Assembly (NCBI RefSeq): GCF_964355755.1
Contig: NC_092672.1
Location: forward strand, 36,834,437 to 36,898,436
DNA from: Antedon mediterranea
Taxonomy: Eukaryota > Animalia > Echinodermata
DNA length: 64,000 nucleotides
Reading direction: 5' to 3'
Every line of letters begins with the position of its first letter. Position 1 is the first letter of the stretch. The notes under the pieces are model-generated. The model was not told the origin of the DNA and made no database searches. It saw only the letters and a program-made list of their open reading frames with translations. This document shows, piece by piece, positions 29,312 to 58,012 of the stretch. The position numbers and the translations under genes are program-made.

Positions 29312-30075
29312 AAACTATAAAAAAAATTAAAGTCAACTTCAAATATAGTTTATCTTGCATTTATTATAATGTTTATTTCCTTATACTGTACAAAGCTTTT
29401 ATAATTGTAATACTGAAGTTGTGTCAGCATGTTTAATAATGTACATGTACTGTATCCTAAACAATTAGTACAAATTCATAACAAACAAAATTAAACACCA
29501 AATATGGAATTATGATATTGATAACTTCCTTTTTTCATTCCTGTTAAAGTAATATATAACAATGTTATTGTTCTTAAAATAAAGCATGTAGTTTTATTAT
29601 TATAATAATATAGCCTTGTGCTACCACACCTTATTTAAGCAACTCACGTAGTATCAAAGTTTAAAATACCGCATTGTATTTTGTAATGTTAATTATTCTC
29701 TATTGATAAACTGAACACAAAATTAACTATTTGAATATTAAGTTAATAATTATAAAGTTTTATAATGTTTTGACTCATACGTAACATACAAATGTCATAT
29801 TGGACAACAGTAAGCGATCAAAGTTTATAAAACAATGAAGAGGAATATAATAATTAATATATTGTTATATACATAAGCATGCTATTATTGCTATTATTTT
29901 TTATTATTTCATAATATTTTACTGTTATTAGTGTTGATAATATTAAATCATGCTGAAATTATTAAATGTAGTAAATGTGATAAAATGTAAAAGAGTAAAC
30001 TTTGTTAATTGATGTCATTGCAACAAACAAATAAATAAATATACAATTAAAACTGTAACCATGTACTGAGACTAT

Positions 30076-32116
30076 CGCCCGTATTCTTAAACCGGACTTT
30101 AGTCGTAGTTCGTTCGAAGTTCGACTTGGAAAAGTCGTAGTTCGAGCTATTACTTCAAATTCGATTCAAAAACGAAGTAGTCGAAGTTTGCAGTTCGACT
30201 TAACTGAAGTCGAGCTTTTAGTCGAGTTGCACACGTCTGGGTAACAAAGGCTATACATTGGCCAATGACAAGAGAGTATTGAGGAGCAGACGAAATTTTG
30301 CGCATTGATATCACTTTCCATTTCTTACAACACTTTTTACGCATCAGGACTATATACATGAAAAATAATTTTAATCGTTAATTATTAGAACAATATCAGT
30401 ATTAATTTAACAGTGAAGTATATTTGATTAACAACAAATAAAATCTTAAAAATATATTTAGGAACCATGGCGGTACGGTAACTTTTATATTTTCTAGGCC
30501 CCCAACAAACTATGATCGCCACGAACCACGCACTTCATAGCGTGACAAGAAAGCGCTAGGCCCCCTAAACATTCCATCGCGTGGTGAATTGCCGCATCTC
30601 CCATTGTCGCTATGGCGTGACGTAGCTCAAGTCGGACTTGCGCGAAGAAAATAATGTAATTTGTATACAGTTGTAAATAAAGATGATTTTCATTATTATA
30701 ATTTATACCAATGTATATTTAATTAAGCTAATATAAATATACAGGGAACATTTTCGCCAGTGTAGCGTAGCAAAAAGCTATACAAAACAACCTTATTGCT
30801 ACACATTTTGAAAATTGTGTAGCAAAAAATACAATACAAAACTATCGCCCGTATTCTTAAACCGGACTTTAGTCGTAGTTCGAGCTAAAACTAAAAAAAT
30901 GACGTCATTTTAATTCATAAACCGAACTTCAACTAAATCACCGACTAAATCAGGCCAACCTCGACTAAATCGAGACGGATTTTGATCGATTTTTTTAGTC
31001 CTGGAGGGGGCAGACTAAATGGTCGACTAAATGTTTTTTAAACGATGTTTATAAAAAACGTAACAGTCATTGAGTTGTTATATTGGCCAGATATTGAAGA
31101 ATGAAATATCTATATTTATATTAGCTTAATTAAATATACATTGGTATAAATTATAATAATGAAAATCATCTTTATTTACAACTGTATACAAATTACATTA
31201 TTTTCTTCGCGCAAGTCCGACTTGAGCTACGTCACGCCATAGCGACAATGGGAGATGCGGCAATTCACCACGCGATGGAATGTTTAGGGGGCCTAGCGCT
31301 TTCTTGTCACGCTATGAAGTGCGTGGTTCGTGGCGATCATACTTTGTTGGGGACCTAGAAAATATAAAAGTTACCGTACCGCCATGGTTCCTAAATATAT
31401 TTTGAAGATTTTATTTGTTGTTAATCAAATATACTTCACTGTTAAATTAATACTGATATTGTTCTAATAATTAACGATTAAAATTATTTTTCATGTATAT
31501 AGTCCTGATGCGTAAAAAGTGTTGTAAGAAATGGAAAGTGATATCAATGCGCAAAATTTCGTCTGCTCCTCAAATACTCTCTTGTCATTGGCCAATGTAT
31601 TTGTTACCCAGACGACGTGTGCAACTCGACTAAAAGCTCGACTTCATTAAGTCGAACTGAAAACTTCGACTACTTCGTTTTTGAATCGAATTTGAAGTAA
31701 TAGCTCGAACTACGACTTTTCCAAGTCGAACTTCGAACTACGACTAAAGTCCGGTTTAAGAATACGGGCGTATGTTTCTGGACTTAAAAATCAGTTTGAT
31801 TAGCAATATTGTTAAACAACATTTTTAAATGAAAATTTTCCCTGATATAGATATTTCATTCTTCAATATCTGGCCAATATAACAACTCAATGACTGTTAC
31901 GTTTTTTATAAACATCGTTTAAAAACCATTTAGTCGACCATTTAGTCTGCCCCCTCCAGGACTAAAAAAATCTATCAAAATCCGCGTCTCGATTTAGTCG
32001 AGGTTGGCCTGATTTAGTCGGTGATTTAGTTGAAGTTCGGTTTATGAATTAAAATGACGTCATTTTTTTAGTTTTAGCTCGAACTACGACCAAAGTCCGG
32101 TTTAAGAATACGGGCG
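30076..32116. mobile_element. Triple nest: MITE X (reverse) containing element Y (30742-31844), which contains a second MITE X (30846-31770, forward)
   Basis: X TIR CGCCCGTATTCTTAAACCGGACTTTAGTCGTAGTTCG occurs four times; inner X flanked by TAT/TAT; Y has CAGGGAA...TTCCCTG ends and an ATATA duplication. Confidence 0.85.
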
Positions 32117-32769: not shown

Positions 32770-35700
32770 TTAGGATGTTTGTACTGTAAAGTAAAATGGT
32801 TTTTCGTCACCATTAACGGCATCTGGTTGAGCATCAGGTGACATCTTAACACCCTTGTTAACCTCGAGAATGTTATAATCATCATCTCCAGCAAAGACAT
32901 CAGTAAAAACAGACATTTCTGGATTGTCATCTTGGTCAGAGCTTTTCTCAAGAACATAATAGTCACCCTCTGCAAGAACATTCTCTACGTCCAAACGAGA
33001 CGTTTGAGCCGGACCAACGTCTCTCTCAAGGACATGATAGTGACCCTCTGCAAGAACATTCTCTACGTCCAAACGAGACGTTTGAGCTGGACCAACGTCT
33101 TTACCGGAGTCCCTCTCAAGGACATGATAGCCACCATCTGCAAGAACATTTTCTACGGCCAAACGAGACGTTTGAGCTGGACCAACGTCTTTACCAGAGT
33201 CCCTCTCAAGGACATGATAGCCACCCTCTGCAAGAACATTATCTACGTCCAAACGAGACGTTTGAGCTGGACCAACGTCTTTACCAGAGTCCCTCTCAAG
33301 GACATGATAGTCACCCTCTGCAAGAACATTCTCTACGTCCAAACGAGACGTTTGAGCTGGACCAACGTCTTTACCGGAGTCTCTCTCAAGGACATGATAG
33401 CCACCATCTGCAAGAACATTTTCTTGTATCTCTACGCGGCGAGGTATTTGTCCCGATTTAAGAAGAGGGTCATCTGGATACGCGTATTCGTGATCATCAG
33501 CATTCGATCCAACAATCTGATTGGCTCTACTCGAAATATCGGTGCCATTGTTGTGAGAATTCTGGCTTGTTGAATTGCCAATATTGGCGACTCCTCTACC
33601 AAGAACATTGTAGTCGCCTCCGGCAAAAGATTTTTCAATATCTGTTGATACGCCGCGACGAGTTATTGGACCTGATGCAAGTATCGGATCATCTGGATAA
33701 GCATATTCGTGGTCGTCTTCGTTAGTAAACTGCGCTCTACCATCATGCGTCTGATACCGAACTTCACCTGAAGCACGGGACGCAATGGCAACTGTTGCAG
33801 ATGTGTGCTCAGTTCCTGGTGGCAATGAAGACACACTCGGTGGTTCTGGTGACAAGTGAACTATAGCACTGGAGTATCCGCTGCTGATTACGTTTTTTGG
33901 TTGACGTTGTAGTCTCATGTATTCATGATTGGATTGATCTCCAGTGTCAGTGTGAATGTCTTGATTCAAGTGTGGTTGTCGGTTTTGGTGTTCTGTTACT
34001 GAATTGTCATGCACTCTTTGTGAGTCATCTGTTACTTTAAAACAAATCAGATCTTATTAGACATGATGTGTGTAATGAAAACTAAATATACAAATTTCGC
34101 CAAAATTATCAATAAATAAGACTACCTGTTTTTAATTTCACGTTCTCTTGAACTGTAGCAACTTTCGTTGTGTTTCTAAGGAGATATAATTATTTGGTGC
34201 TTTATCTTTATCGTCATCATTTATTTGAAAATTATCATTGAATATCGTCTTTAATTCTCTTTAATGACATTGTCACATTATAACACTCTTTTCAGTACTA
34301 TCACGATCATTATATTATTCCAATTGTAATGAAGTAGAAGTCTTCAAAACAGTCTACAGTGCAAACAAGCATAGTTAGTTAGTCACTGAGAAATGTAATC
34401 ACTACCATGATAACCAAAACTAAACATGATAACTAAAGTAAATTCAGATAATTAGCGCTACTTTCATAATATAATTGTACGAAGCCGACTGAATGATAAT
34501 AACACGTTACTTTGTAACACATTCACAAATGTGTTCTTAATATATACTCAGTATTCAGTAAAATTACGGCAGAAAAAAAACGTCAAAACAATTAATAGGC
34601 CTACATAATTATTAATTAAAAATGCACTTCTTGAACCTACCTTTGATTCTGTCTTCGATGGTAGAAATATATCGCTAACATAATCATAAGTAGTATTAGA
34701 ACACAAATCGGTATGTATATCTGTGGATTCTGCTTTGTTGAATCTTGGAGTGACCCTCCAACAAAGTCCCTGGTTGTAGCATAGTTGGGAGTAGTATCCT
34801 GATAATTTGTTGAAGCGGGTGATGTCAATTGTGGGTCTTTTAGTGACTCTAAAAATAATTGTTATTGAATAAAACAAAATAAATATACTCAATATAAAAA
34901 CAATTAAGCCGCTAAAATGTTTTGAAATCGTTTACACTCAGTGTTGTAGCCTTATTGTAGGTCTACTTACAGTTTTCTTGACTAGTTTCTAAAACTTCAG
35001 GCCTACAATCAGTTTACCGGTATTATACTTGCCGTAAGAAAGGAAACCCTCTTAACCCTTGTTGAGCCATGAAATGGGCAAAAAGTCAAATTTATGAAAA
35101 CATGGCACTCTCAAATGTGCAAATCTGTAAACAATTCTTAATCCACTAATGTGCCGTTAAGTGTCCAAACGATCAGTTTTGACGTTAAATGTGCAAAGGA
35201 AATTCTACAAATGTGCAAATCATTTTGAAAAATCGAATAACAGAAGGAACATTTTATAGATGAAGAAGGCATGCATAGGGATAAATAATAATCCTTAGGC
35301 AAATGAAATGATGCGCGATTTAATATAGCGCAAAGATTTTGTTGCCCAATTTGAATTTGCACAACAACCTTGTATAATTTGAAATTGCGCAAGGAAATCT
35401 TTGAGCAATTTCAATAACATTTTTTGTTAAACTTGCATTTTTTTTAGTATGCGTAAAAGATTTATAAATGAGCTTTGGTTTGATCAAATACTGAAAATAC
35501 ATTGCGCTGTTTGAAATTTTCTGCGCAATATTAAGTTTTATTTTGATACAATTTGTGCACAGAAATCCTTGAAATTTAGGCTACATTGATCAAATCTCGC
35601 ATAACATAAACATGCACTTTAAATAAAATGTAGAAAATATAATGCACTCAGTTAGGTCTAATTATATTTTGTAATTTCCTTTTAAATAAGAGAACATCTA

Positions 35701-37204
35701 AGGAACTTAAATTCCAACGGTATGGAAGTATTGCCATCTCCAGCAAGCAATACCACGTGTCAGTCCTGAATCCCCGGATCATTGTAAAAATGTTGTAAAA
35801 CACAACACAGATTATTTCAGGCTGTATTACTATCAATGACGCCAGTGGCAATATATCGAAAACATTATGTTAGAAAAACCCATGGATAGTTAGAATCATT
35901 TTTATTTTAACTAGTCCTATGACTAAACTTATTTTGGTTGAAGAAAATTACAGTATTTGCACATTTGTAGAATTTCGTTTTCAAATCTAACGTCAAAACT
36001 GATCGTTTTGAGGGTGCAATGTTTGCACTAATTCAATCTTTCATTAGTGGAAAATTACTTCCATTTATTGTCATTTGCATAAAAAATACATAGGCATAGG
36101 AATTATGTTTGCTCTATTTATTAGTATTCTTACGAAAAAAACACACATGCAGTTTTCCGCGGGAAAGGTGGTACCGCAGTTTGAACTTTCGTAAGAATAC
36201 TAATAAACAGAGCATAATAAAATTTTACTACTATTAATATATTACTACTGTAGGTACAGACATTGTATTACAAACGAATTTGTATTACCATCAACACAAA
36301 CTTTAGGCCACTCATGCCTTTCCGTTGAACTCTTGAGTACGCCTACATATATGCAATCAATGTCGTTTTGTAATATTATTATTCTACAGTTGTTTGATTG
36401 AAATCTGCAGTAGAATGTTTGTTTAACGGTCATTGCTTGATTAAATGTGCATTTTTTCATAATACAGCAAGCAGGCCTACAGGTTGACGCAATACGTGTG
36501 TTCTCTGTTCCATTGAAAAATATGCACCAAATAGCTTTTTTATAAAATGTACATTCATTGTTAATTTTAATTCCATTACAATGACAGATCAGCCAGGAGA
36601 ACAGCCTACCATCTATACTTTGTTTACATGTTCTCATATTACCGTCGCTCAGATTTGTGGGGCCTGAAATTTCGTTAGGACTACAGCAATAGTCAGTACC
36701 TTCTACCACCAACAGACTCATCATCCAAACCAACTGAATTTCCAGAACTAGGGTATAATGTATACCGGTAATTAATTAGTCAAAGTATACACAGGACTGA
36801 GAATATACACATGTACAGTATTGTTAAAATATTTTAAAAATTGCTATACGTTAATTTATACCGATTATACAATATCATCGGATTTTACAGTATTATAAAT
36901 TGATAATAAAGTAAATAGACCTGGAATTTAACAACGGCCATGGTACCGTCATGCAATGGTCAATGTCTACACTTATAATGAATGTTTTGCACAATGAACC
37001 ACACGATTTCATATTTTAGTATAGTTATAGGCCCTATTCGCACTAAAGGCTACACCATCAAAAATCTTATTTGCATTGCAATTTTTTTTAAATTTTGGAT
37101 CCGCTTTATGTGCTTGTCCTACTTAATTGTAATTTAATTCCATTCTGTTGAATCTCAGAGCCTGGATTAATATCAAATTGTAATTGTTACTTACGTTTAA
37201 ACAT
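32770..37204 (-). CDS. Receptor 1: unassigned type I membrane protein, about 663 aa; exons 37195-37204, 36289-36747, 34641-34848, 34126-34175, 32770-34034
   Basis: All junctions GT-AG and in frame (1992 nt). Signal peptide MFKLLEIQLVWMMSLLVVEG, 15-Cys ectodomain, short S/T stalk, TM IYIPICVLILLMIMLAIYFY plus HRRQ stop-transfer, long acidic tail with YMRL, 2x YAYP, YNVL, 5x YHVL, YYVL, YNIL and YFTV. Confidence 0.8.
32945..33425 (-). repeat. Coding 90-bp (30-aa) tandem repeat DVENVLAEGDYHVLERDSGKDVGPAQTSRL, 6 tyrosine-bearing units
   Basis: GACATGATAG recurs at 33121, 33211, 33301 and 33391 (90-bp period); one unit has an in-frame 12-bp deletion. Confidence 0.92.
35040..36060. mobile_element. 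Degenerate inverted-repeat element in a receptor 1 intron
   Basis: GATCAGTTTTGACGTTA...AAATTCTACAAATGTGCAAAT (35171-35220) is inverted at 35955-36004; ends not resolved. Confidence 0.5.
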
Positions 37205-39247
37205 TATTTGAATTTTCCTATATATATTATTACCAGTATGACTCTTGTTGACTAATGAAAAAATCGAACAATCATAACCTCACAGTCAGTATGTTTATAC
37301 TTCAAGGAAAATCGTAAAAATGATATCAATTTCCTTAGTCATGATGTTCTGACTTTACTCTATTACACTGGTATAGCTGCGTCAATTCATGTGTGTTCAC
37401 TATATCAATAATTATATAAGGAAGCTTAAACGTAATTATTTCTACTCCCGCCCTATAGACAAAAAAAAATCTATTCTATATTTAGAAAATACAAATAGAA
37501 TATAATATTCTCTTTCTAGGAAGGGAAATGTTAAATCACTGTTGTTATCGTGTTACCGTCTTACATACGTCCGTGTACTGTCAATGTACGACTGCTGCAA
37601 ATTTACCTATGTTTTCACCCTTAGGTCTATGTTTCTTTCCGCAAGGTATCAAACAGGACTGGTATTGTCCCGGAATGTGTGGAAATTCCACCTCAGTTTT
37701 ATTTTTTCTAATTGAAGGTTGTTCCGAACAATGGCAATACAATTCTATATTCTGAAGCTAGGATTCAACGAAAAAAAGACAAAATGGCCATGTCAGTTTA
37801 TCATATGAATTCCTTTTAGCGAAAAAGGACAATTCAGAAAACAGCTATTTTGGCACTCGTCACAGATCAGTGCACACAGCCACAAATATTCTGCTGAGCA
37901 GTGTACTGTTTAGACTATTCCATTCTCAAAATAGGTAAATTGTTTATAAGGTCAATTGAATTGATTTAAGATTCAAGAAATTTCAACCTCGGTTTCTTAA
38001 ATAGTTATTACATTATGTTCAACTGCGGTTTTACGAAAATCTATTATCATCTCTTTGGTTTTAGTAATATTAAGTATTAAGTTCATATTCTCACACCAAT
38101 TAACAAATGAACAAATTGCAAATAAACAGGTAGGCCAGTTTCAATTCAAACTTTATAGAAACCACCACATAATATATATGTATAAAAAGGTCATATATAT
38201 AGTCCAAATCACTGTTAAATAGTCCCTTAGATATATTAATTCTAACTTTACTAAGAAGAAACATAATTATTGCCTACTTATGTTCATTATATTTCCCTTT
38301 GATAAAATGGAATAACCCGCTACCAATCCAGCCTAGCCTAGCCTATGTTAGACAATGGCCGATGCGAAATTTGTTGTATACACTTAAAAGGGCTAGTAGC
38401 TTATAGACTATTTAGGTGGTATTATTGCGTATTTTCTCTAAAAAAATTACACAGAATTATTTTATATGACTTTAACTACAATATTGATTAACAAATTGTA
38501 ATGAAAATAAGCAGAATATACTCACATTTGGGTATCAAACACAGGCCAATAGTACACATAAGAGAATTTCGCGCGGAATTTCCCAAAAATATGCTGTTTA
38601 GTAATCAAATTTTCGCGGGTCTCACCATAATCCAATCAAAAAAAATATTACATGGTTAGAAAGCCACTGTATAGGAGACTACGATGTTAAAAGAACTAAG
38701 TTTTAAGAGGACGCTGTTCAAAGTTGTGGCAATTTCAAAACTATACATCAGCGAAAAACGCGAATTTCACACAGGAATCGGCTGTTTTTTGGCCGGGACA
38801 GGGTATGTTTAATGTAAATTCGCGATTTCCAGCTATCAAAAATTTATTTTTTAAATACATAGTCAGAAAGTACAATACCTTAGCTTCAACATAGTATGAG
38901 AACTAATGTATACTATGCGAGATAAAGATTTTACAAGTATAAATGTGAAAAAAAGTAGTTTCCTCCATGCACTTAGAATAGGAACAATATCGTGCGGAAG
39001 ACGTTTTTGGATTAGTGCACCAAAGGAATCCATATGATTTTGTTTATTAGTTGCAGCGGGTACTGCACCAACAGGATTGTAATTGTTTGCAACCACCGTG
39101 GAGTAACTTTGCGTCAAAGTGTTGAGTAAGCCTAATTAGTCCGATGTTTGCCGTACTGTCGTTTTTTTTCACAAGTATTCTCAATTTACTTAGTATAGAA
39201 TACAAATTACGTCAGAGTGGTATTACAAAAATTGGAAACACCAACTA

Positions 39248-39565
39248 GTTGCTAGACGACAGGTCGAAGGTCAAGAACTTCAAAGATAGCTTCTTGCATA
39301 TATTATTATTTTTAATGTTTTATTTCCTTATAAAAAGCTTTTACAATTGTAATACTGAAGTTGTGTCAGCATGTTTAATAACAACATGTATCTTAAACAA
39401 ATAGTATAAATCCATAACAAACAAAAGTAAACACCAAATACGGAATCCTATTTTAAGAAACTCATTCACTTAGTCTTAAAGTTTTAAAATACCACATTGT
39501 ATTTTGTAATGTTAATTATTCTCTATTGATAAACTGAACACGAAATTAACTATTGTAGTTAATAA
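39248..39565 (+). pseudogene. Duplicated fragment of the beta-adaptin 3' end (30 nt of coding exon fused to 3' UTR)
   Basis: GTTGCTAGACGACAGGTCGAAGGTCAAGAA is identical to 28981-29010; followed by sequence aligning to about 29337-29750; homology resumes at 42046. Confidence 0.85.
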
Positions 39566-42045
39566 GACACTACCCGCGTTTACGCGTAACACTTTAGAAG
39601 CGTCAAATTATAGTGCGCCCCCTCGCTTAAACAAGTAACGAACTTTTGCGTGACGATGATCGCAGTATTCTTTAGAAAATGGGATTGAGGAGTCGCGCCA
39701 AAGTTTGTATGGTTAAGAAACAATGAATGAAAAGAGAAAAAGTGGAGGGATGTACTGTGCTGCAATTAATTGTAAAAGCAATTCAAAGGCCAACCCAGAA
39801 CTTAAGCTTTACAATTTTCCCAAAGACAAGAACAGGTAAATTTATGTAATTAAATAAGTAGCCTACATCTTAACATATGCTATGTAGGCCTAGGGACTAA
39901 TCTTACTTTACTGTATTCAATTTATACATATATTAATAAACTAGGCTAGGTAGGCCTATTATTAATAATTATTATTTAAACGTATGAAATGATTATAGTA
40001 TCATTATTAGGCTACTACTAGTACATATAGTTGGTTATATTACTTATCCTTTAAAATTTAGTACCCTTAACAAACAATTTTTAAAACTTTCAATTCAAGA
40101 AACATTTATTGACCAAATATATATCATTACAATTGTTGGCATATAAGTAAAAATTTGGTCGAAAGACTACAATTACAATTGGCATGTCGCTGTAGGCCTA
40201 GTCCCTCTTTTTACATTATACAAATAATAATAATAATAATACTTAATATAAACAAATTGTGATCTTGATTATTTCATGCTTTCCGTCTCATGGTTAATAT
40301 TTGCTTTCTGTCTCATGGTTATTTGATTTCGTTTAATTTAACTAGCCGTTACATACATTACAGTATATTAACGCATGAAATGATTATTATTATCATTATT
40401 AGGCTAGGACATTAGTTATAATAACAGTGAAATTACACTATTTGTATTGTTCCCTTGTTATATTACTTATCCGTTGAGTAGCCCTAACAAACAATTTTTA
40501 ATTGAATCTTATACTTAATCTTTATGAAATTCAACCGTTAGTTAGTGGTTTTAGGTTAGGCTTAAGTATTTGATTTTCAAAATTTGAAAATCAATTAGCA
40601 TGCACGTAGACGTCCTATAATTACGTAAACGTTAATTATGATAAAGCAAAAACTCACTAGACAATTATTAATTTACAGGTGTGCAAAATGGGCCCAGAAC
40701 ACACGACGCGCGGATTTGAGAACGAAACCAAGTTCCTATTTACACCGTAATTGCCACTTGTGCAATATTCATTTCGAAGAATCTCAAATACTGATGGTCA
40801 CAAAAAGATTGTATGGAATGCATTCCCTACAATATTTGATGTCCCAAATCCACCACACCAAGTAGTTAATGTCCTATCTATCTGTGAAAAGATTTTTGTT
40901 TCAAACTTTAACAAATACTTACATACATCAAACATCAGCAGAAAAATAAAGTTAAAAATCGCTACCATGTTACATAGATTTGGTATGAAGTTGAATCTTT
41001 GTTCACCAGCAATTGAAACATTGCTAATTGAAACGTACGTAAACCTACGCATATTCTTCAACAGAGACATAATCAGTGATAAGAAGAAGAGTAAAAAATT
41101 AATTAAAGTATCACATTTATGAGGTCTGGTAAAGTTGTAAGAGGTCTGTACGCGCTCCGGTCTGTGCATTATTGGCTAGAAATGATTATCATTACGACGG
41201 TCTGGTATGATGATTGAATAATTGTAAATATGATGATTTTATTTCAATGTTTCTACATTTTTTATATTTCCTCTGGGTGGCCCGTGCATCATTTCGGAAT
41301 AGTTATTGAGTTAATTTTAAACTGAGACTACTATAACATAACTTATTGTTATCTCAGGTTTTAAATCAATTATAATAATAAATGAATGTCATGGCGAATG
41401 ATGGGTACCGGTATGCCTAGTATGAATTGTCTCAGAATTGACTATCATAATCTGTTTCATATCATGCCTGTAGGCTTAAGCCTATGATTGTTTATAAATA
41501 TATTCCGAAAAACTACTGCAATAAAATAGTCGAAGTAGTGATTTTAAAAAGTGACTCTTGTTCTTTTTTAATTGTTTTTAACACACTATTTGACTAATAT
41601 ATTTTCCTAATCTGTACTGTTTTGCTGCTGGATGAAAAGGAAGAACATATCAAGAACAAAAACGGAATACGATGCGCTTAGTGTTGTTAATACCAGAGGG
41701 ACCGACTCGCATAAATAAGTAGTAGTGATGTGAGTGATGATTACTCCTAGATGATGATTTTGAGGATGATGATAAACATTCAATAATAACAACAATATTC
41801 AGTAATTAAAACAAATAGATATACAAAGTACAGGAAATAAGTCTATCATTATAATTTAATCGCACATTACCACAATTATTGTGATGAAAAAAATTGAGTA
41901 TTCAGTTACAATACAGTAGACATATCTGATCCATAAATCTACTTGTTTGAGCGAGAGGGCGCCCTATAAAATGAGCTCCATGTGTGTTACATGAATTGCA
42001 CGTAAAATTCCGAGAGTGTCCCATCTTTAGTATATAAGATCTTTG
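39566..42045 (+). mobile_element. Internally deleted P-element/THAP-type DNA transposon
   Basis: Absent from the paralogous segment near 29745. Right end reads CAAAGATCTTATATACTAAAGA on the minus strand; imperfect inverted subterminal repeats (GCGCCCCCTCGCTTAAACAAGTA / TACTTGTTTGAGCGAGAGGGCGC); the left terminal ~25 bp is missing. Confidence 0.75.
39750..41122 (+). pseudogene. THAP zinc-finger transposase relic
   Basis: MYCAAINC...FPKDKNR|CAKWAQNTRRADL...LCNIHFEES, then a frameshift to AFPTIFDVPNPP (C2CH THAP plus AVPTIF box); intron 39836-40678; fused directly to a C-terminal-like segment, so the catalytic core is missing. Confidence 0.8.
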
Positions 42046-43070
42046 ATAATAATACAAGTTTTACAATGTTTTCGCACACATTCATAACATTACAAATGGC
42101 ATATTGGACAACAATCAATGGTCAAAGTTTATAAAACAATGAAGAGGAATCAAATATATTGTTTAATGTTTAATTTTAATTTTTTATTTGATTATGTTTT
42201 TCCTTTGTAATGTATTATATGATGAAATAATAAAAAAAAAATACATTGTTAACATTATATAGACCTATACACAAGCATGCTATTATTTCTTATTATTTCC
42301 TAATATTTTACAATTATTATTATTGTATAAAATGATTGAATGTAGTAAATGTGATAAAATGTGAAAGAAAGATAGAAGAAAATAAATTTAATTTAAATAT
42401 ATATTAACCTGAAACTTAACTGGGCTGGAATACCATACAAAATTCTACTAAATGGGTTTCTTGTATACTATACTTCGGTTGGTTGGTTGGTCGGATGGTT
42501 GGATAGTCGGATGGTCGGTCGGTCGGTCGGTAAACACTAACTCAAATTTGGCCTTGTTTTTTTTTTAATTTAAAGATACTGTATAGCAATTTTAAAGGCG
42601 AATTGTCTATCATGAATGCTAAAATGGAAAAATTAAGATAATAATACCTAGTTTAAGCATGAAACGCATTCGTTAATAACCATTTTACACAATCACACAA
42701 TTTGTATTTTCCCCAATATCATTTAATTCTTTAGTATTGAATGATATCTTTAAATGGGTACATTTAAGTAGACTCTTTTAAGTAGTCTCGCCTTGTCATT
42801 ACATAACCACTAATTAAAATTTAGTTTCAAAAGCTAATAAATTTGTTTATGTAGTATTAAGGTTTAGTTGCATTTATTTCAAGAAAGAAGTTTTAGAAAT
42901 TATTTACAGATAGGAAGCTAGAACAATAATGCTTTTTTTTAAACACAAGTATAAATAATATAAGTACAATACTTTAATTTTTTTTTAAACTAGATTAAAA
43001 TTGATGGACTGATGCCCATCAACTTTAAAAGAAACAATTTAGACTTTTTGTTCAATCCTGGCTTAGGTCT

Positions 43071-45684
43071 CTAAGATGTTTGTACAGTAAAGTAAAATGG
43101 TTTTTCGTCACCATTAACGGCATCTGGTTGAGCATCAGATGACATTTTTCCACCCTTGTTAACCTCGAGAAGGTTATAATCATCGTCTCCAGCAAAGACA
43201 TCGTTTGATGATAGAGGCATTGGTGGTGTATTACCATCAGTACAAACAGACATATCTGGATTGTCATCTTGGTCAGAGCTTTTCTCAAGGACATGATAGT
43301 CACCCTCTGCAAGAACGTTCTCTACGGCCAAACGAGACGTTTGAGCTGGACCAACGTCTTTACCAGAGTCCCTCTCAAGGACATGATAGTCACCATCTGC
43401 AAGAACATTCTCTACGGCCAAACGAGACGTTTGAACCGGATAAACGTCTTTATCGGAGTCCCTCTCAAGGACATGATAGCCACCCTCTGCAAGAACATTC
43501 TCTTGTATCTCTAGGCGGCGAGATATTTTACCTGACTTAAGAAGAGGGTCATCTGGATATGCGTATTCGTGATCATCATCAGTCGATCCAACAATCTGAT
43601 TGGCTCTACTCGAAATATCGGTGCCACTCGTACGAGCATTCTGGCTTGTTGAATTGCCAATATTGGCGACTCCTCTCTCAAGAACATTGAAGTCGCCTCT
43701 GGTAAAAGACTCTTCGATATCTGTTGATACGCCGCGACGGGTTGTTGGACCTGACGCAAGTATTGGATCATCTGGATACGCGTATTCGTGATCGTCTTCG
43801 TTAATAAACTGCGCTCTACCATCATGTGTCTGATACCGAACTTCACCCGAAGCACAGGACGCAATGGCAACTGTTGCAGATGTGTGCTCAATTCCTGGTG
43901 GCAATGAAGACACACTCGGTGGTTCTGGTGACAAGTGAACTATAGCACTGGAGTATCCGCTGCTGATGACGTTTTTTGGTTGTCGTTGTAGTCTCATGTA
44001 TTCATGATTGGATTGATCTCCAGTGTCAGTGTGAATGTCTTGATTCAAGTGTTGTTGTCGGTTTTGGTGTTCTGTCACAGAGTTATCTTGAATTCTTTGT
44101 GAGTCATCAGTAACTTTAAACAAAATATGGATATATCGTTAGACACATGGGGTTCTGTTTAGGTGTAGGTGATTACCTAAGTTAATTTGCCAAGGCAAAC
44201 TAGTTCCAGAAAAATGACATAGCCTACCTGTTTTTAATCCAACGTTCTCTGGTATCGTATTAATTTTCGTTAAGGTTCTAAAGAGAAAATAATGTTTCTT
44301 TTATCATCATCATCATTATTAAGAATATGATCATGTCGTCATCGTCAACTTATCTTAAGTCATTGGCGGTTCCGTTTCATTATATTGTAATCATCAACCT
44401 AATTTTGTATTACAGTACCATCACCGATCATGATTATCATTGTTGTCATTGTCAAGATTGAATGAAGCCCAAATACCTATCGAGATCTCCCAGAGTGTAC
44501 CGTAATAAGTGTATATTGCAGACACTATTGTATCAACAAATTTTAATTAATTAATGATTTTACATTGATTAAAATGTGCGCTGCTTGACCTACCCATTTC
44601 TCTGTCTTCGGTGGTAAAAACATATCGCTACTATAATCAACATTATTACAATACATATACAAATCAGTATAATAATGTATTTCTGCTTGGTTGAAAGCCT
44701 ATTACTCGTCTTCGGAAGTGTAGACCCATCATGAGCAGCATCAGGGGTAGTAGTAGTACTAACAGGACTATTACTAGCAGGAGTAGTAGTACTAGCAGGA
44801 GTAGTAGTACTAACAGGACTATTACTAGCAGGAGTAGTAGTACTAGCAGGAGTAGTAGTACTAACAGGACTATTACTAGCAGGAGTAGTAGTACTAGCAG
44901 GAGTAGTAGTACTAACAGGACTATTACTAGCAGGAGTAGTAGTACTAGCAGGAGTAGTAGTACTAACAGGACTATTACTAGCAGGAGTAGTAGTACTAGC
45001 AGGAGTAGTAGTACTAACAGGAGTAGTAGTACTAACAGGACTAGTACTAGCAGGAGTAGTAGAACTAGCAGGAGTAGTAGTACTAGCAGGAGTAGTAGTA
45101 CTAGCAGGAGTAGTAGAACTAGCAGGAGTAGTAGTACTAGCAGGAGTAGTAGTACTAGCAGGAGTAGTAGTACTAACAGGAGAGAGATATGAGATGTCCT
45201 GTTTATTTCCAGCTATAGTGTACGTAGAGTCAGTAATAACAGTAGGCCTAATGGTTGTTGAAGTAGCTTTTGTAGCAGTTTGTGTAATGTTATTGGCATT
45301 GCATCGAGCATCTATTATATTTTTAAGACATTGTGTGCTTAATAGTTCTTTCTCAATCATGGTAGTACAGGTTTTGCAAATCTTCACTTCTTTACAATTG
45401 TCTTTTATCATACAAATTGAGTCTAGTAATTCCAAGCATTTCGTCTTATTATTTCCAATGCCTGGTGGATTAAGGTTATTATAAGTAGGCATATAGCCTT
45501 CTGATGTTGATTCTTGCAAACATTCTAGGAGATTATTGTCAAGACAAGCACGTGGTGGTGGTGGTGGTGGGAGTAAACAGGAGGGTGGATTGGTAACCCC
45601 ATTAACTTCTTTACCAGTTGCATATTTGATCAAGAAAGTGAATGTCCAAACAAGTTGGCATACACAAATTATTTTTATATTCAT
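43071..45684 (-). CDS. Receptor 2: unassigned type I membrane protein with mucin stalk, about 727 aa; exons 44594-45684, 44228-44277, 43071-44113
   Basis: In-frame GT-AG splicing (2184 nt). Signal peptide MNIKIICVCQLVWTFTFLIKYATG, 10-Cys domain, (STTTPA)n stalk, TM YIIILICICIVIMLIIVAICFY plus HRRQ; tail highly similar to receptor 1 but with only 3 YHVL units. Confidence 0.82.
44750..45182 (-). repeat. Coding 18-bp VNTR (PASTTT/PVSTTT/PASNS) forming a mucin-like stalk, with a 54-bp higher-order period
   Basis: AGCAGGAGTAGTAGTACT repeated more than 20 times, in frame within receptor 2. Confidence 0.92.
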
Positions 45685-46529
45685 TGGTGATGTAGGCCTA
45701 TTTTTAAGCTGAGGTTTATAGCGCGCGGCAGCTTTTTCTTTCTTGTCCAAACAGCAAATCTGAAAAGAATGTGTATGTTATGATTATTTATTTTCTAAAG
45801 AATTACGTCTATCTATTATTTTTGTCAATGATTTTATATAGCCGAAGGCTAGATAGCAAACTGCAATGTTATCGCAGCAGGTAAAAAAAGTGATTCTCCA
45901 TGGAGAGAGGAACCAACAAGATGGCGGCTGCAATCGACCAATCAGATATGCCCTACGCAGTACGCACTGCTATACGCGTGCTGTGTTGAGCCTATCTGCG
46001 TGAGAACGATACGCAAGGCAGCGCGTTAAGCGTATAAACGCGATCGCATTCTATATGATCCTCGTATACATAATATGCTAGATTACCAAGAAATTATTCA
46101 TTCCATTGCGATTAACAATAATTATATTTAATTTTATAAAAACTTCACTGTGCTTTGACAAGAATATGTGTTGTAATTTATGTGGTCTTAATGTAGCCAC
46201 CATCTTGTTGGTTCCCTCTCCATATGAAGAATCACTTTTGAACTGCGATAACATTAAAAGATTGCCATCCAGCCTTCGGCTATTACAGATCACTGTTTTT
46301 AACACATTTACGGCCGCCATCTTGTTGGTTCCCCCCTCCTCCTGTTGGAATCACTTTTCAGTCTGGAGTACGCCCTCTAGCCTTCGGCTTATTACATGTA
46401 GTATATGCACGCGCACATATATATATATGCGTACTGCGCATATGCTCTGACGACTTTAGCCTACAAAACGTTCTATACTTGTTCATGACTACTAGGCCTA
46501 GTTGGTTTCATTAAATACGTTCATTATTA

Positions 46530-49202
46530 TGTAACAGGGTAACAGGTATGCTTATACCCAAATACTTGAATGATTTATCTGCTGAATCTGACTTGAATCT
46601 GAGAAACCTTGTGGGACCCATTAAAGTAAAAGCTGGAATGATAAGTGACCATGCTATAAATAGATGAGTCACCTCATCCAAGTGGCGGGAAAATGGTCAT
46701 GAATATTTAGTGTATAATGTTTCAGTATGGGTCAGTTCATAAATGGACAAGGGATTTTGTTAATTGATTTGCATTTTTAATAGTTTCTTTTTTTTGTATA
46801 ACCGAACTTTAAATTGATAATTACATGTGTGTGACTCGAGTTACAATACAAACGGTCTGTAAACTACGAAATAACGTTATGGTAAATGTATATACCATCG
46901 GTTAAAAATTGTAATAGTACCCAACTGGGAATGGATGACACTTACTAGTGCCTAGCCCAAAGTGAAGGTTTTCATCTCCTTCCGACTGGTTACTAGGTAA
47001 GCATCTATATTTTTATCTCTCTTAATTTTAGAATTGTTTTACTATAGTTAATATAGTTGATTAGTTATTTGATGTTATACTATAGTTAATATAGTTGATT
47101 AGTTAATCGATTGTTATACTAGACACAACGCAATAGCAGCCTATACAATACTGTCGTTAATGATACGATCACTGATGTTATCTTAAATAGTAACACTGTT
47201 GTTGTTATCTCCTTCCGACTGATTACTAGCTTCAATAAAAGAATATAACTTTTCCAAACCAAGAACTGTCTCTGTGGATGATTTTATTGTGTTTGTGGCA
47301 ATGCTGCAGCTCCTGAAAATACTACGCGATAAAGCTACGACGCTAGTAGTACGAACCTGTTACATTTGGTGCCGTGACTAGGATTTGCTGTTCAGCCAGG
47401 AAGGGATCACTCTCAAGAAAGACTACGATAAGTGCTGATTAGTCTTTTCTTAAGTTTTAACCAGCCATTTGGAAAGATGTGGATCTTACTCAACCTTACG
47501 TCCCTGAAGCTGCAGTACCAGAATCTGCTAATACAATATCCATAGAACAACAAGAAACACCATCTATCAACCCTGCTTCTGTCCATGCATCTGTGGAACC
47601 GTCAGAAACTTCTCCTTCAACTGAGCATGATATCACTCCCGTCGCAGTCGTCATGGATCATACTGATGATGATAACTCCTCAGGAGAAACACGTTCAGAA
47701 CCAACCTTAAGTCTCCAACGTTCGAAACGTGTAATTAAACCGCCAGACCGATACGGCTTTATTTCTAAGTGGCTCTGGGGAACCCCTGCACTAACATCCC
47801 ATGTGGGTTGTTTAGATGTTTGATTGTTTAAACTGTATTAATTTTGCTTGATACTTAACTTGTTTTTTATATAATTATGTCTGAGAGAAGACAATTTTAC
47901 TTGATTTTAATTTTAATCTCAATAGTTTAATTTGTTACCTTTATTGTATACTGTATCTTTTGTATGATCATGTTTTTTTAACATACTTGTTTGCCATGTG
48001 TATGGCTTGTGTTATGTTGGTACGTCACCTTGTGTTTGGTGGGATTGAACTTTCGAGTAGTAATCGCAGGATTTCGAGAAACTTCTGAAGTGTAAACGGG
48101 CACTTCTGTACACCGACTATTGTGGGGATGGCCACCCTTCAATAGTAATCCATTTGGATAAATTGTTATTGGTTGTTTCTAATAATTCTGTATAACTTGC
48201 TCTCATTGGTTCAATCAGGTACAGGTATACTGTTGTGATATAACAGTTTCATTTTTTTTATAAATGCCATTTAGTTAAGTTTTTTTATGTAATTCCCTAT
48301 GATGTCATTTTCATTGTATAAATCGTGACTTGTAAATGTACCGGTGTATTTAGGTTTAGGTTAATGAATTTGTATATAACTGATATTTAGCAGATAAATG
48401 GGGGGTGAGTGTAACAGGGTAACAGGTATGCTTATACCCAAATACTTGAATGATTTATCTGCTGAATCTGACTTGAATCTGAGAAACCTTGTGGGACCCA
48501 TTAAAGTAAAAGCTGGAATGATAAGTGACCATGCTATAAATAGATGAGTCACCTCATCCAAGTGGCGGGAAAATGGTCATGAATATTTAGTGTATAATGT
48601 TTCAGTATGGGTCAGTTCATAAATGGACAAGGGATTTTGTTAATTGATTTGCATTTTTAATAGTTTCTTTTTTGTATAACCGAACTTTAAATTGATAATT
48701 ACATGTGTATGACTCGAGTTGCAATACAATCGTTCTGTAAACTATGAAATAACGTTATGGTAAATGTATATACCATCGGTTAAAAATTGTCATAGTACCC
48801 AACTGGGAATGGATGACACTTACTAGTGCCTAGCCCAAAGTGAAGGTTTTCATCTCCTTCCGACTGGTTACTAGGTAAGCATCTATATTTTTATCTCTCT
48901 TAATTTTAGAATTGTTTTACTATAGTTAATATAGTTGATTAGTTATTTGATTGAATATACTAGACACAACGCAATAGTAGCCTATACTGTCGTTAATGAT
49001 ACGATCACTGATGTTATCTTAAATAGTAACACTGTTTTTGTTATATCTCCTTCCGACTGGTTACTAGCTTCAATAAAAGAATTTAATTTTTCCAAACCAA
49101 GAACTGTCTCTGTGGATGATTTTATTGTGTTTGTGCCAATGCTGCAGCTCCTGAAAATACTACGCGATAAAGCTACGACGCTAGTAGTACGAACCTGTTA
49201 CA
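46530..49202 (+). mobile_element. Non-autonomous LTR element nested in the 5' LTR of the Gypsy element
   Basis: LTRs 46530-47364 and 48410-49202 (TGTAACAGG...CCTGTTACA); PBS TGGTGCCGTGACTAGGAT (tRNA-His-like); PPT AAATGGGGGGTGAG; the ~1 kb interior keeps only a pol C-terminal remnant (LQRSKRVIKPPDRYG). Confidence 0.92.
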
Positions 49203-49424
49203 TATACTCATCTCAACGTACTTATTAATTTGTCTACGACGATACACGACACTGGCGACGAGGATGGGATCACATTTACATAGAGAAACGGAAGTATAAT
49301 AATATTATAAAACTAGGCTAGCAGTTTTTGATTTTCCAACAACGGCAACAGTAACCAAGGAACCACACAGGCTAATAGTAATAACGATTCTGAGCGCCCT
49401 GAACGTACAGAGCGAAGCGCGGTA

Positions 49425-52400: not shown

Positions 52401-53533
52401 GCAATGTCAAGCATGTCACCAAACACAAAGTCGACCAAGCGTAGCACCAATGATGCCCTGGATCTGGCCAAATCAGCCTTGGACACGAATACATATTGAC
52501 TATGCGCAGAAAGATAAACGAGATTATCTAGTAGTGGTTGACTCATATTCGAAATGGCCAGAAGTCGTTCAGATGAACAGTACGACGAGTGCAGCGACCA
52601 TCAAAGCGATGAGAGAGTTGTTCAGTAGATACGGATTGCCTGTTCAACTTGTAAGCGATAATGGACCTCAATTTGTTAGCGACGAATTTGAATTCTTCTT
52701 AAAGCAAAACGGGGTGAAACATGTAAAGGTTGCACCTTATCACGCCGCAAGCAACGGAGCAGCAGAACGAATGGTTCAATCTTTCAAAAGATCGTTAGCG
52801 GCAAGCCGAGCGAATGGGAAGGATTTCCAACAATGTTTGGACAGATTTCTTTTATCGTATCGCACAACAAAACACGCAACTACGGGACAAACGCCAGCGA
52901 AGTTATTCATGGGCCGTGAGTTACGTAGCCATAACATCGGCATGGGTTCGAGGCTCACTCACTCCATGGTTCTGGTGGTAGAACGAGTCTTCTCGGATAA
53001 GGACTATAAACCGTAGGTCCAGTGTACACATCTAGCTCGTGTGCACTTTAAAGAACCTAGTACATCTTTCGAGACGAGTAGGGGGTTACCCCGGTGTATT
53101 AGTACATCACAGCCACTGATCACCAACTGGGCCCTCTGGGAGACCAGTCTTTGACTGAAGAGGTTACCCAGTATAAATATATATTTCAATTCAATTCAGT
53201 TGAGAACGCGAGTATCACTTTTACATCCCAGTACAGAAAACAAGGTACACAAGCAGAGTGATCAGAAGCTTCATCACGACAAAACGAAAGATCTACGAGA
53301 ATTTTACCCAGGTGAAATGGTATTAGTGAAAGATTTCCGACAAGAGGGAAAGTGGTGGCCAGGTACCGTGATAGAACGTACCGCTCCAAAATCATACGTA
53401 ATTAGTGTTGAGGATGGCCGAGTGTGGAAAAGACACATTGACCAGTTGAAAGCGACAGACGCGGACGCTTACGCGAGTAAAACCCCTACTTCACATAGCG
53501 AGTTGGAACACAAGATTAAACAGACAGTACCAA
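49425..53533 (+). pseudogene. Gypsy gag-pol, disrupted
   Basis: Gag with two CCHC knuckles (CDRCGMNNHTRDTC, CFKCNKQGHLKSEC), protease VDTGA, RT (RLPFG, IMDD), RNase H (TDASPY), integrase (H-H-C-C, HIDY, SDNGPQF, AERMV); several frameshifts, an in-frame stop and two insertions. Confidence 0.93.
52923..53197 (+). mobile_element. 5'-truncated SINE inserted in the integrase
   Basis: Interrupts GREL|RTRVSLL; AGTT duplicated at both sides; B-box-like GGTTCGAGGC, core CGGATAAGGACTATAAACCGTAGGTCC, (TTCAA)n tail. Confidence 0.8.
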
Positions 53534-56170: not shown

Positions 56171-58012
56171 TTAATAAACATCATTTTCGAGTAACTTATC
56201 GTCTTTGTAAGTGTCTTTAACCTGCGCTGCAAGCAACTCATCTTTAAACAGGTTTTCGTAACTTAATTCTGTAGAATGCCGCTGTTCTTCATTACAGTAC
56301 GTATTTGGTAGCCAATCTCTGGCATCTGGATACGTGTATTCAAATTCCGCGGTGCTTGGTTTCATGACTTCGTATCCTACATCTGGTGGCAGTGGTGGTG
56401 GGGGTGGAGGTGGAGGCGGTGGTGGTGCAATTGGTTGATAAGTGTTCTTTTGTTGCAAATGTAATTGTTGTTGATGTTTCTTTACGTTGCTTCGAGGTTT
56501 GTGTTTCTCATCTTTAAAAAAAGCAAAATATATAAATACCGGTACTGGGTCATTTATTATGAAAAGTTGAAAGTAAACATAGGAATATATTGCGCCAAGA
56601 TATGAACAAATTTAATCTAAGTGTAAAGCTGTAGCTTGGTGGTTAAACGTGCTTGTCTTTCAATCCAAAGGCCCAGGGTTCAGTATATTATTGCCAGGGT
56701 TGTAACTCACGACTTTTTCAACTCCACTCCCTAGGCCTAAAATAAGACTTATATATTCAAGACAACCACGATAAATTATAAAATAGTTTATCCATCTTGT
56801 AATTGGGGTTATTCGCTGTTGGATGAATTAAAGCTTGGCTCCCACTAGGACGCAACAAGGATGTAAGAGCAACGCAAGTAATTTGACCAATCACGACGCG
56901 TTCAATTGTGATCCATCGCATTGTGATTGGTCAAATGTTGTTGTTCCTGTGTGCGTTGCGTCCTAGTGGGAAGTACTCAAAATGTATGATCAGGGTGTGA
57001 CTTCTTGAGAACTCTCCATTATTTGAAAACATAGACTTATTATTCATAGGAAAATAAGTGCTTATTTAATAACAGTGTGGTCTTACGTGTTTTCATCGGC
57101 GTTGAACTACTTGATGTGTTTAGAGTGTATCTAGAAAAAGAATATAGGTATTAATGAAATCTTTAATAATGATATAAAAAAGCTTCAACAAAACAATTAA
57201 ATATAATGATTTTTTTATTTTATATTAACATGATGGGGCTATCATAATATTGTATACCATCATAGTGTTCCGCCCTCTAGTGGATGTTATTGCCGCACTT
57301 ATCAAGAAATAGTTGCGTATGTTATCATTATTATACAATGTGCTATATAATTAATATATTTTTAATATTAAATTGATCAAAGGTCCGATATACAATTTAG
57401 TATTAAAGACCAAGACACAACTCATAAATCCAGTACATAGGCTTATAGTTCTACAGCAAACCATCGAACAGTTTTGACACCGTGAAGCTCTCATCTAAAC
57501 ACCATCAAACTTTGTGACAAACAAAATGTGATGTGCGCCCCTATATGGACATGATGTTTAGGAATATCACTACCATATTTGGACACATCACATTTTTGTT
57601 GTCAAACTAGTTTGATAGTGTAGACAGAGATTAAGTGACCACATCCATTCTACCACACCCAATGCTTAACCTATTTAGACATTTGGTCAGATTATTATAT
57701 TTAGTTAGAATCTAAATGACAACCTTGCAATACTGTTAAATTTTAATGTTTTTTTAATGCCTTTCTGAATGTTTAAATTTTATGCGTAGTTTTGCTGTGA
57801 ATTTGTCATTTTTAATGTTTCAATCTTGATGATGAATACAATATTTTCAGACTTTTGTCTACTTTTTGTAAATGTTTTATATCTGAATAAATAAACAAAA
57901 TAACTTACTTATTTCTATAAACTAGTTTTCTATATAAAAAACAGACAATCACGAACAGAGCAGCGACTGCCAGTGACAGGAGCGTTATGATTACAGTGCA
58001 TGTCGTATCCAT
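56171..58012 (-). CDS. Receptor 3: short membrane-anchored adaptor-like protein, about 162 aa (or the intact 3' part of a pseudogene); exons 57909-58012, 57087-57130, 56171-56511
   Basis: MDTTC-TVIITLLSLAVAALFVIVCFL-YRKLVYRNK, then a small exon ending MKT with the same 2/1 intron phases as receptors 1 and 2, then a tail with poly-Pro, YQPI, YEVM, YTYPD and YENL. In-frame stop a few codons upstream of the ATG. Confidence 0.6.

What the first reader, a model, noticed from the sequence alone, without database searches (positions are those of the whole stretch)
32945..43510. Signalling tail built as a VNTR of hemITAM-like YHVL units (6 versus 3 copies)
Seen: a 30-aa unit with (D/E)G(G/D/H)YHVL occurs 6 times in receptor 1 (one unit YYVL) and 3 times in receptor 2 (43275-43510). 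Every unit keeps Tyr and the +3 Leu, and the one indel is in frame. An older, longer duplication (DDHEYAYPDDP...GGDYNVL / DDHEYAYPDDP...DGGYHVL) underlies it, and receptor 2 has a Y>F change (YNVL>FNVL). Established: DGYxxL hemITAMs of Dectin-1 and CLEC-2 recruit Syk, and repeat number tunes output in CagA EPIYA arrays. Inference: repeat copy number acts as a rheostat on signal strength.
Basis: partly seen in the sequence, partly recalled or inferred. Interest (0 to 1): 0.78.

Follow-up and report, generated by a model that had tools for sequence, protein, structure and literature searches.

The report
Expandable tyrosine repeats in feather-star receptors
Two neighbouring feather-star membrane-protein genes carry six and three copies of a 30-residue tyrosine repeat in their inner tails, copied from an old conserved motif and present in other numbers in related samples; the tail likely docks phosphotyrosine-reading proteins, but the repeats are not true hemITAMs and any tuning of signal strength by copy number is untested.

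Summary
The repeat is real. Two tandem paralogous single-pass membrane genes (- strand) of an Antedon feather star carry 6 and 3 Tyr-His-Val-Leu units at a 90-bp period. The gene is spliced as predicted in a close relative, and the tail is under purifying selection (dN/dS 0.28). The only credible homologue, a probably syntenic Anneissia protein, holds one copy of the module and keeps 5 of 5 aligned tyrosines. So the motifs are old and the array is a young expansion. Unit number differs among samples: 2 in a relative (3 of 3 runs), and 1 and at least 2 in another sample (weak junctions). Allelic polymorphism at one locus is not shown. 0 of 9 units meets the triacidic hemITAM definition or DGYxxL; the units lost the acids that the ancestral motif has. 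Tyr/Leu invariance among units is expected by chance (P about 0.4-0.6). The CagA precedent is mostly a one-to-two switch, not a rheostat. Best reading: a multivalent SH2-docking tail with a mutable, largely tolerated repeat. New variant of a known kind, moderate interest.

The parts
32770..34034 (-). R1 last exon: acidic, hydrophilic cytoplasmic tail with stop
   Evidence: open frame; AG acceptor; intron 34035-34125 skipped with GT..AG ends in a contig of run X9
32946..33424 (-). R1 array of six Tyr-His/Tyr-Val-Leu units (90-bp period, one 78-bp step)
33470..33720 (-). R1 older duplication: two DDHEYAYPDDP motifs (Tyr at 33705, 33486) with GGDYNVL (33612) between
   Evidence: 6 synonymous, 0 non-synonymous differences between the two 11-codon motifs
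32866..32889 (-). R1 terminal DDDYNIL motif, the direct counterpart of the Anneissia DEDYSIL; truncated after Tyr in organism B
34126..34175 (-). R1 50-nt juxtamembrane exon
   Evidence: both flanking introns skipped in X9 contig
34641..34848 (-). R1 exon with short Ser/Thr-rich stalk and transmembrane helix
   Evidence: hydropathy 2.79; spliced in X9
37195..37251 (-). candidate R1 ectodomain exon (57 nt)
   Evidence: splice-site scan; X9 bin depth fits about 58 nt of cover; weak
37607..37757 (-). candidate R1 ectodomain exon, Cys-containing; its 5' end and the R1 start exon were not established
   Evidence: only 37607-37651 matched in organism B; no Pfam or PDB match
39219..42368 (+). decayed second copy of the 3' end of the adaptin-beta gene, split by insertions; marks the tandem duplication boundary
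   Evidence: 76-89% matches to 28944-29994
43071..44113 (-). R2 last exon: cytoplasmic tail with stop
   Evidence: 564 of 611 nt identical to R1 in the unique 5' part
43283..43503 (-). R2 array of three YHVL units
44228..44277 (-). R2 50-nt juxtamembrane exon
   Evidence: canonical splice sites, frame joins; 37 of 50 nt like R1
44594..45684 (-). R2 exon: predicted signal peptide, Cys-rich domain of unknown family, mucin stalk with its own 51-bp repeat (44749-45182), transmembrane helix
   Evidence: the start Met is inferred (a possible splice acceptor lies near 45760)
56171..58012 (-). R3, third Tyr-tail membrane gene (predicted exons 58012-57909, 57130-57087, 56511-56171); same exon phases as R1/R2; motifs YEVM, EYTYPD, SYENL; likely distant paralogue
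   Evidence: sequence similarity to the R2 tail is marginal (E 0.01-0.4)

Best explanation
The array is a young, Antedon-lineage tandem expansion of one conserved acidic tyrosine motif in the long, hydrophilic inner tail of two paralogous feather-star membrane proteins, and the tail likely works as a multivalent phosphotyrosine docking scaffold in which copies beyond two would add only modestly. Shown: gene structure, purifying selection on the tail, deep conservation of the tyrosine motifs, and differing unit numbers among genes and samples. Inferred history: one ancestral module (HEYxYPDDP followed about 30 residues later by FAxDxDYxIL, then PFYFT) was duplicated twice, and the YxxL half of the second copy then expanded by slippage or unequal crossover, probably helped by exchange between the paralogues. 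Inferred mechanism: clustering brings a cytoplasmic tyrosine kinase that phosphorylates the acid-flanked sites; the YxxP sites would bind Crk/Nck/Abl-type SH2 domains (recalled specificity), and YxxL sites 26-30 residues apart would be bridged on one chain by a tandem-SH2 protein (SHP2-, PI3K-, PLC-gamma- or Syk-type; partner not identified). A large avidity gain would come with the first closely spaced pair and small gains afterwards, so 6 versus 3 is likely a tolerated difference of a few fold at most.
For: Splicing of both introns as predicted in one X9 contig. R1/R2 tail dN/dS 0.28, P=1.7e-5. Old duplicate motif: 6 synonymous/0 non-synonymous in R1 and 4/0 in R2, against 4/5 and 3/7 in the next 10 codons. 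Anneissia XP_033098654.1 (E 6.7e-5 among 1.84 billion proteins) lies on a contig of the same length as the Anneissia phospholipase B-like 2 gene, whose orthologue is in this window. It holds one module, with 5 of 5 Tyr kept versus 38 of 72 other residues (one-sided P=0.049) and 22 of 29 versus 21 of 48 identities near versus far from Tyr (P=0.005). EYMRL is also kept, at another position. Unit counts of 6, 3, 2 and 1/at least 2, with all joins in frame. Tail net charge -35/-30, GRAVY -0.83. Known bivalent pair GAB1 Y627/Y659 has 31 residues between sites and 34-fold avidity (PMC13681993, passages). CagA KD 24,100, 208, 123, 77.8 and 40.1 nM for 1, 2, 3, 5 and 8 copies (PMC4623810 section 5). 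Syk, Src-family kinases, Abl, Csk, Grb2 and PLC-gamma transcripts are reported in a sea star (PMC11593052, passages).
Against: No binding or phosphorylation data. The repeat units are the acid-poorest versions of the motif (1 acid at -4..-2; ancestral sites have 2 there and 3 within -4..-1), so they may not be phosphorylated. Pooled dN/dS among units is 0.68 (non-independent pairs), no clear constraint. Between R1 and R2, changes near Tyr are not significantly rarer (3 of 52 versus 18 of 151, P=0.29) and 1 of 8 Tyr changed to Phe. Organism B loses the terminal YxxL and PFYFT motifs by frameshift. Glycine at -2 does not fit the ITIM-type SHP consensus (0 matches). The Tyr test rests on one homologue and hand-delimited segments, and Tyr is generally a conserved residue. 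R1's signal-peptide exon was not found in the window, so the six-unit gene could be 5'-disrupted.
Confidence: 0.5

Rival explanations
1. The conserved old motifs do the signalling, and the repeat units are nearly neutral passengers: acid-depleted copies that expand and contract by slippage in a disordered spacer without being read.
For: Units lost the flanking acids; invariance of Tyr/Leu among units is at chance level; counts range from 1 to 6 with no sign of an optimum; Anneissia has one copy; the same gene has a second, unrelated expanding repeat in its stalk, so the locus is repeat-prone.
Against: The unit core already diverged from the older copy while keeping Y-x-V-L and an upstream acid; all joins and the array indel are in frame (weak, since frameshifts would remove the C-terminus).
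Confidence: 0.25
2. One reading: the units are Syk-recruiting hemITAM equivalents and copy number is a selected rheostat of activating signal.
For: YxxL core; the ancestral motif has three acids directly before Tyr (DEDYSIL, DDDYNIL); type I invertebrate receptors with hemITAM-like motifs exist (Botryllus FcoR, PMC12582321, passages); a modelling and binding study suggests that tandem-SH2 proteins, including the ZAP70 linker, tolerate GAB1-like spacing; copy number does vary.
Against: 0 of 9 units meets the triacidic or DGYxxL definition (definitions); the triacidic patch is required for phosphorylation in CLEC-2; ITAM spacing not met (22-26 residues between motifs); CagA shows a threshold rather than a graded response; allelic variation at one locus not shown.
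Confidence: 0.13
3. The YxxL units are unphosphorylated YxxPhi sorting signals for clathrin adaptor mu subunits, so copy number would alter internalisation or surface residence rather than signalling.
For: All 9 units fit YxxPhi; Gly at -1 in 4 of 9 units resembles GYxxPhi lysosomal signals (recalled).
Against: Such signals usually lie near the membrane or the C-terminus and occur singly (recalled); these lie 235 or more residues in; the acid-flanked YxxP motifs point to kinases. The neighbouring adaptin-beta gene is no evidence.
Confidence: 0.1
4. The 6-unit array is an assembly artefact.
For: Short-read contigs do not span the array.
Against: No two full units are identical; X1 depth over the array is not lower than simulated for 6+3; multi-unit contigs also occur in X5.
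Confidence: 0.02

Closest known systems
Anneissia japonica uncharacterized protein LOC117102483 (XP_033098654.1)
   Same: Homologous tail module RYxTHDGR, HEYxYPDDP, FAxDxDYxILE, PFYFT and EYMRL; probably syntenic with PLBD2
   Different: One copy of the module, no 30-residue array, longer C-terminal part; the 316-aa model has no transmembrane segment (likely a partial model); function unknown
hemITAM receptors CLEC-2, Dectin-1, CLEC9A (PMC3576117 and PMC3819593, passages)
   Same: YxxL core with an upstream acidic residue
   Different: They have one YxxL after three acids, at a set short distance from the membrane, bridged across dimers by Syk, in C-type lectin-like receptors; here 3-6 copies with one acid on one type I chain
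Helicobacter CagA EPIYA-C array (PMC4623810, abstract and section 5)
   Same: Variable number of tandem Tyr segments in a disordered tail; avidity logic for tandem-SH2 partners
   Different: Bacterial effector with measured SHP2 binding and a different motif; the effect is mainly a one-to-two threshold; here a host gene with no binding data
Botryllus fester co-receptors FcoR (PMC12582321, passages)
   Same: Clustered invertebrate type I receptors with several Tyr motifs; core-2 motifs occur in pairs 29-33 residues apart; in the partner FF family, divergent ectodomains share similar C-terminal parts
   Different: Ig-superfamily, true ITIM/hemITAM, linked to allorecognition; variation by alleles and splicing, not by tandem repeat number; no homology shown
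Scaffold-type Tyr tails: GAB1 bisphosphorylated SHP2 site (PMC13681993, passages), transmembrane adaptors such as PAG (PMC2213442, search listing only), Prolectin (PMC2709368, abstract)
   Same: Long tails with many Tyr motifs; spacing of about 30 residues; R3 resembles a short-ectodomain adaptor
   Different: No tandem repeat array in the text seen; vertebrate proteins without detected homology

Membership tests
hemITAM | three acidic residues at -4, -3, -2 before YxxL | tested here: not met
   0 of 9 units (one acid each); 0 matches in R1, R2, R3 or the Anneissia protein; the terminal motif has three acids at -3..-1, shifted by one
hemITAM | DGYxxL consensus | tested here: not met
   0 matches to [DE]GYxx[LI]; units read D/E-G-G/D/H-Y
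hemITAM | single YxxL per chain at a set short distance from the membrane | tested here: not met
   9 YxxL/I in R1 and 5 in R2; first unit 235 residues from the helix
hemITAM | C-type lectin-like receptor context | tested here: inconclusive
   type I topology predicted; no lectin domain matched in the ectodomain pieces scanned, but the R1 ectodomain is incomplete
hemITAM | Syk-dependent phosphorylation and Syk tandem-SH2 binding | not testable with these tools
   needs peptides and kinases
ITAM | YxxL/I-x6-12-YxxL/I | tested here: not met
   0 matches; gaps of 22-26 residues in the arrays
ITIM/ITSM | S/I/V/L-x-YxxI/V/L or TxYxxV/I | tested here: not met
   0 in R1 and R2; one ITIM-like LSYENL in R3
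Coding VNTR | head-to-tail in-frame units | tested here: met
   period 90, 92-94% matches, 0% indels
Coding VNTR | unit number differs between alleles of one locus in one species | tested here: inconclusive
   X5 (same organism label, other sample) shows 1-unit and 2-or-more-unit contigs, but junctions have 27 letters on the short side (below the 31 advised) and cannot be assigned to R1 or R2; organism B shows 2 units in 3 of 3 runs of one study
Multivalent SH2-docking tail (works-like claim) | several conserved Tyr motifs in a long hydrophilic tail | tested here: met
Multivalent SH2-docking tail (works-like claim) | tyrosines phosphorylated and bound by SH2 proteins | not testable with these tools
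   no data
Any named ectodomain family | Pfam, PDB or fold match | tested here: inconclusive
   no match above cut-off; single-sequence model pLDDT 43.5, best Z 6.7 to generic helical bundles

The most novel reading that the evidence does not exclude
Feather stars carry a host-encoded counterpart of the CagA EPIYA-C array: receptors with different ectodomains are plugged into one shared, repeatedly homogenised signalling exon, and the number of SH2-docking units in it segregates as alleles from one to six or more, crossing the one-to-two avidity threshold and so switching or scaling receptor output between individuals.
Probability: 0.15. Interest if true: 0.72.

Novelty: new variant of a known kind. 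Interest (0 to 1): 0.42.

Why it matters
Tyrosine-motif tails are common in invertebrate receptors. Here the whole path is visible in one locus: a single conserved motif in Anneissia, duplicated modules, then a tandem array that differs between paralogues and close relatives. If the units are read by SH2 proteins, this is a natural allelic series for testing how valency sets signalling in an animal's own receptor, a question mostly studied with bacterial effectors and synthetic arrays. It also points to an apparently undescribed crinoid receptor cluster between the adaptin-beta gene and a BCR-like gene. If the units are passengers, it is an ordinary coding minisatellite.

Tried and rejected
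No genome is held for this window, so paralogues elsewhere and Syk/SHP2 genes of this animal could not be sought. Word-index protein searches found nothing for the tail (191-611 aa only) or the R2 ectodomain (638-2000 aa only). ESM Atlas gave no usable hit for either. Of 2 hits of the full HMMER search, P0003 (a nematode protein with its own 30-residue acidic repeat, 24% identity) was rejected as a periodic compositional match. The R2 Cys-rich domain model was too poor to interpret. A WSC-domain likeness of the 37607-37757 exon is recalled only; Pfam and PDB gave no match. A 48-nt candidate exon at 36698-36745 was dropped (no cover in organism B). The exon that precedes the transmembrane exon in X9 has no match in the window. 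No RNA holder was listed as such. Depth-based copy counting was too noisy to give a number. One X5 joint (33492 back to 32985) remains unexplained. A first Tyr-conservation count (6 of 6) double-counted one Anneissia site and was replaced. Join translations were out of frame through a coordinate slip and were redone. No complex prediction was run, because phosphotyrosine cannot be modelled there. Literature searches for a described receptor of this kind: 1 paper, unrelated by title; 0 papers; 4 papers, 3 listed, mammalian repeat surveys; 22 papers, 15 listed, none on these genes by title or abstract start; 1 review. These cover only the open library, and no supplements were read.
Full report
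Setting. The window is animal DNA. A phospholipase B-like 2 exon is 99% identical to the Antedon mediterranea protein and 77% to Anneissia japonica. Other exons show a few differences from A. mediterranea, so this is an Antedon feather star, species not determined. Gene order: PLBD2 (-), an adaptin-beta gene (+; Pfam Adaptin_N), R1 (-), R2 (-), an LTR retroelement, R3 (-), and an exon that I recognise from memory as BCR-like. A decayed second copy of the adaptin-beta 3' end at 39219-42368 marks a tandem duplication. No whole genome is held.

Observation. Confirmed: six and three units, one in-frame 12-nt deletion, the older duplication and the Tyr>Phe change. The invariance of Tyr and Leu among units is uninformative, because 23 of 30 columns are invariant (P=0.58; core of all nine units P=0.40). 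No two full units are identical, and read-derived contigs of the best holder match the window closely, so an assembly artefact is unlikely.

Gene models. Each gene has a transmembrane exon (ending in phase 2), a 50-nt exon (phase 1) and one large tail exon. One contig of run X9 (organism B, about 93% identical DNA) skips exactly the two predicted R1 introns with GT..AG ends, while a contig of X7 runs through them. R2 is predicted as a 727-residue type I protein with a Cys-rich domain, a mucin stalk (78% Ser/Thr/Pro, its own 51-bp repeat) and a 370-residue tail. R1 has a 444-residue tail; its upstream exons are only partly located and no signal-peptide exon was found. The paralogues are 92% identical in the tail exon, but 74% in the small exon, about 70% in the transmembrane part, and close to shuffled background in intron 1. 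In organism B one contig carries the tail at about twice the depth of two different upstream contigs (44.4 versus 20.9 and 21.4 in X7). This fits two genes or two haplotypes sharing an identical tail. Homogenisation of the tail exon is therefore inferred, not shown; contig depth is not a copy number.

Selection. Over 203 gapless codons R1 and R2 differ at pS 0.162 and pN 0.049 (dN/dS 0.28, P=1.7e-5). The two old DDHEYAYPDDP copies differ by 6 synonymous and 0 non-synonymous changes in R1, and 4 and 0 in R2, whereas the next ten codons show 5 and 7 non-synonymous changes. A HMMER search of 1.84 billion proteins gave 2 hits. One is a compositional match. The other is Anneissia LOC117102483, on a contig of the same length as Anneissia PLBD2, so probably syntenic. 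It carries the module once: RYHTHDGR, HEYSYPDDP, DEDYSIL, PFYFT, with EYMRL further on. Non-redundantly aligned, 5 of 5 tyrosines are kept against 38 of 72 other residues (P=0.049), and identity clusters around Tyr (22 of 29 versus 21 of 48, P=0.005). Against this: changes near Tyr between R1 and R2 are not significantly rarer (P=0.29), 1 of 8 Tyr changed, and organism B has a one-base insertion that ends the protein right after the terminal DDDY tyrosine (X7 and X9, equivalent join in X6; reading).

Copy number. I laid 5 of 9 listed runs, and the output tables were truncated (one search hides 46 pieces, hides 4064). Organism B shows one array of 2 units in 3 of 3 runs laid (three samples, one study), by an in-frame skip of 360 nt. 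Its spacing is 26 residues, like R1's last step. X5 (same organism label as the best holder, another sample and study) has, among 16 laid contigs, two that join the last unit directly to the pre-array flank (one unit; only 27 letters on the short side, below the advised 31) and two that imply at least two units. Its tail pieces differ from R1 by up to 8.6%, so these may be other paralogues or lineages. The series is thus Anneissia one motif; Antedon 1, 2, 3 and 6 units. The number is labile, but segregating alleles at one locus are not shown.

What the motif is. HemITAMs are defined by acids at -2, -3 and -4, which are required for phosphorylation (PMC3576117, passages), or by DGYxxL at a set distance from the membrane (PMC3819593, passages). 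0 of 9 units meets either; ITAM and ITIM patterns also fail. The ancestral site, with three acids directly before Tyr, is the most hemITAM-like, and the repeat units are acid-depleted derivatives of it. The 26-30 residue period resembles bivalent sites such as GAB1 Y627/Y659 (PMC13681993, passages; flexible linkers of about 40 A in PMC10231330, passages) and the paired core-2 motifs of Botryllus FcoR, 29-33 residues apart (PMC12582321, passages). For CagA, affinity rises more than 100-fold from one to two copies and about 5-fold in total from two to eight (PMC4623810, abstract and section 5). If the analogy holds, 6 versus 3 matters little, and the one-unit forms are the interesting ones. Even those keep the terminal YxxL nearby in the X5 contigs seen (no insertion at that site).

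Mechanism and odds. Multivalent SH2 scaffold with threshold-like avidity and largely tolerated extra copies 0.50; passenger repeat beside functional old motifs 0.25; Syk-type rheostat 0.13; sorting signals 0.10; artefact 0.02. Kinase, partner, ligand and cell type are all inferred. Echinoderm eggs do express Syk, Src-family kinases, Abl and Grb2 (sea star; PMC11593052, passages); their presence in this animal was not checked.

Novelty. I found no description of these genes or of a tandem-repeat Tyr array in an invertebrate receptor tail in the searches named under Tried and rejected; these cover an open library only and no supplements. Earlier notes of this scan list several other invertebrate receptors with Tyr arrays (unchecked), which suggests that the architecture is recurrent. 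Verdict: new variant of a known kind, interest 0.42.

Noticed in passing
window 56171-58012 (-): Third predicted membrane gene R3: no signal peptide, N-terminal helix, 136-residue tail with poly-Pro, YEVM, EYTYPD and SYENL; same exon phases and a K-T exon end as R1/R2; looks like a LAT/PAG-type adaptor (recalled resemblance).
   Followed up: partly
window 44749-45182 (-): Second coding tandem repeat in R2: 51-bp unit x 8.4 encoding a Ser/Thr/Pro mucin stalk.
   Followed up: partly
window 32866-32877, organism B contigs: The close relative ends its tail right after the DDDY tyrosine by a one-base insertion, losing two motifs that are conserved to Anneissia.
   Followed up: partly
X7/X9 contigs ending at 33929: A second contig type in organism B joins the shared tail just before HEYMRL with a different upstream sequence that reads open over the 30 letters shown, suggesting a different front end on the same tail.
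   Followed up: no
window 39219-42368 (+): Decayed duplicate of the adaptin-beta 3' end, interrupted by a multi-copy element that looks THAP-like (recalled; no Pfam match for the piece scanned).
   Followed up: partly
window 46397-54521: LTR retroelement with 134-nt terminal repeats (94% alike); its reading frames are in several pieces; a second repeat (46530-47365 / 48410-49203) is nested in it.
   Followed up: no
window 30076-32116: Young element made of long inverted repeats (670 nt at 97%, 272 nt at 98%) between the adaptin-beta and R1 3' ends.
   Followed up: no
window 61678-62547 (+): First exon of a gene resembling BCR/ABR (recalled; no Pfam match), with acidic Tyr motifs such as DYEQIYENI.
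   Followed up: no
P0003 (nematode): Unrelated protein with its own 30-residue acidic Tyr repeat; matches the array by period and composition only.
   Followed up: yes
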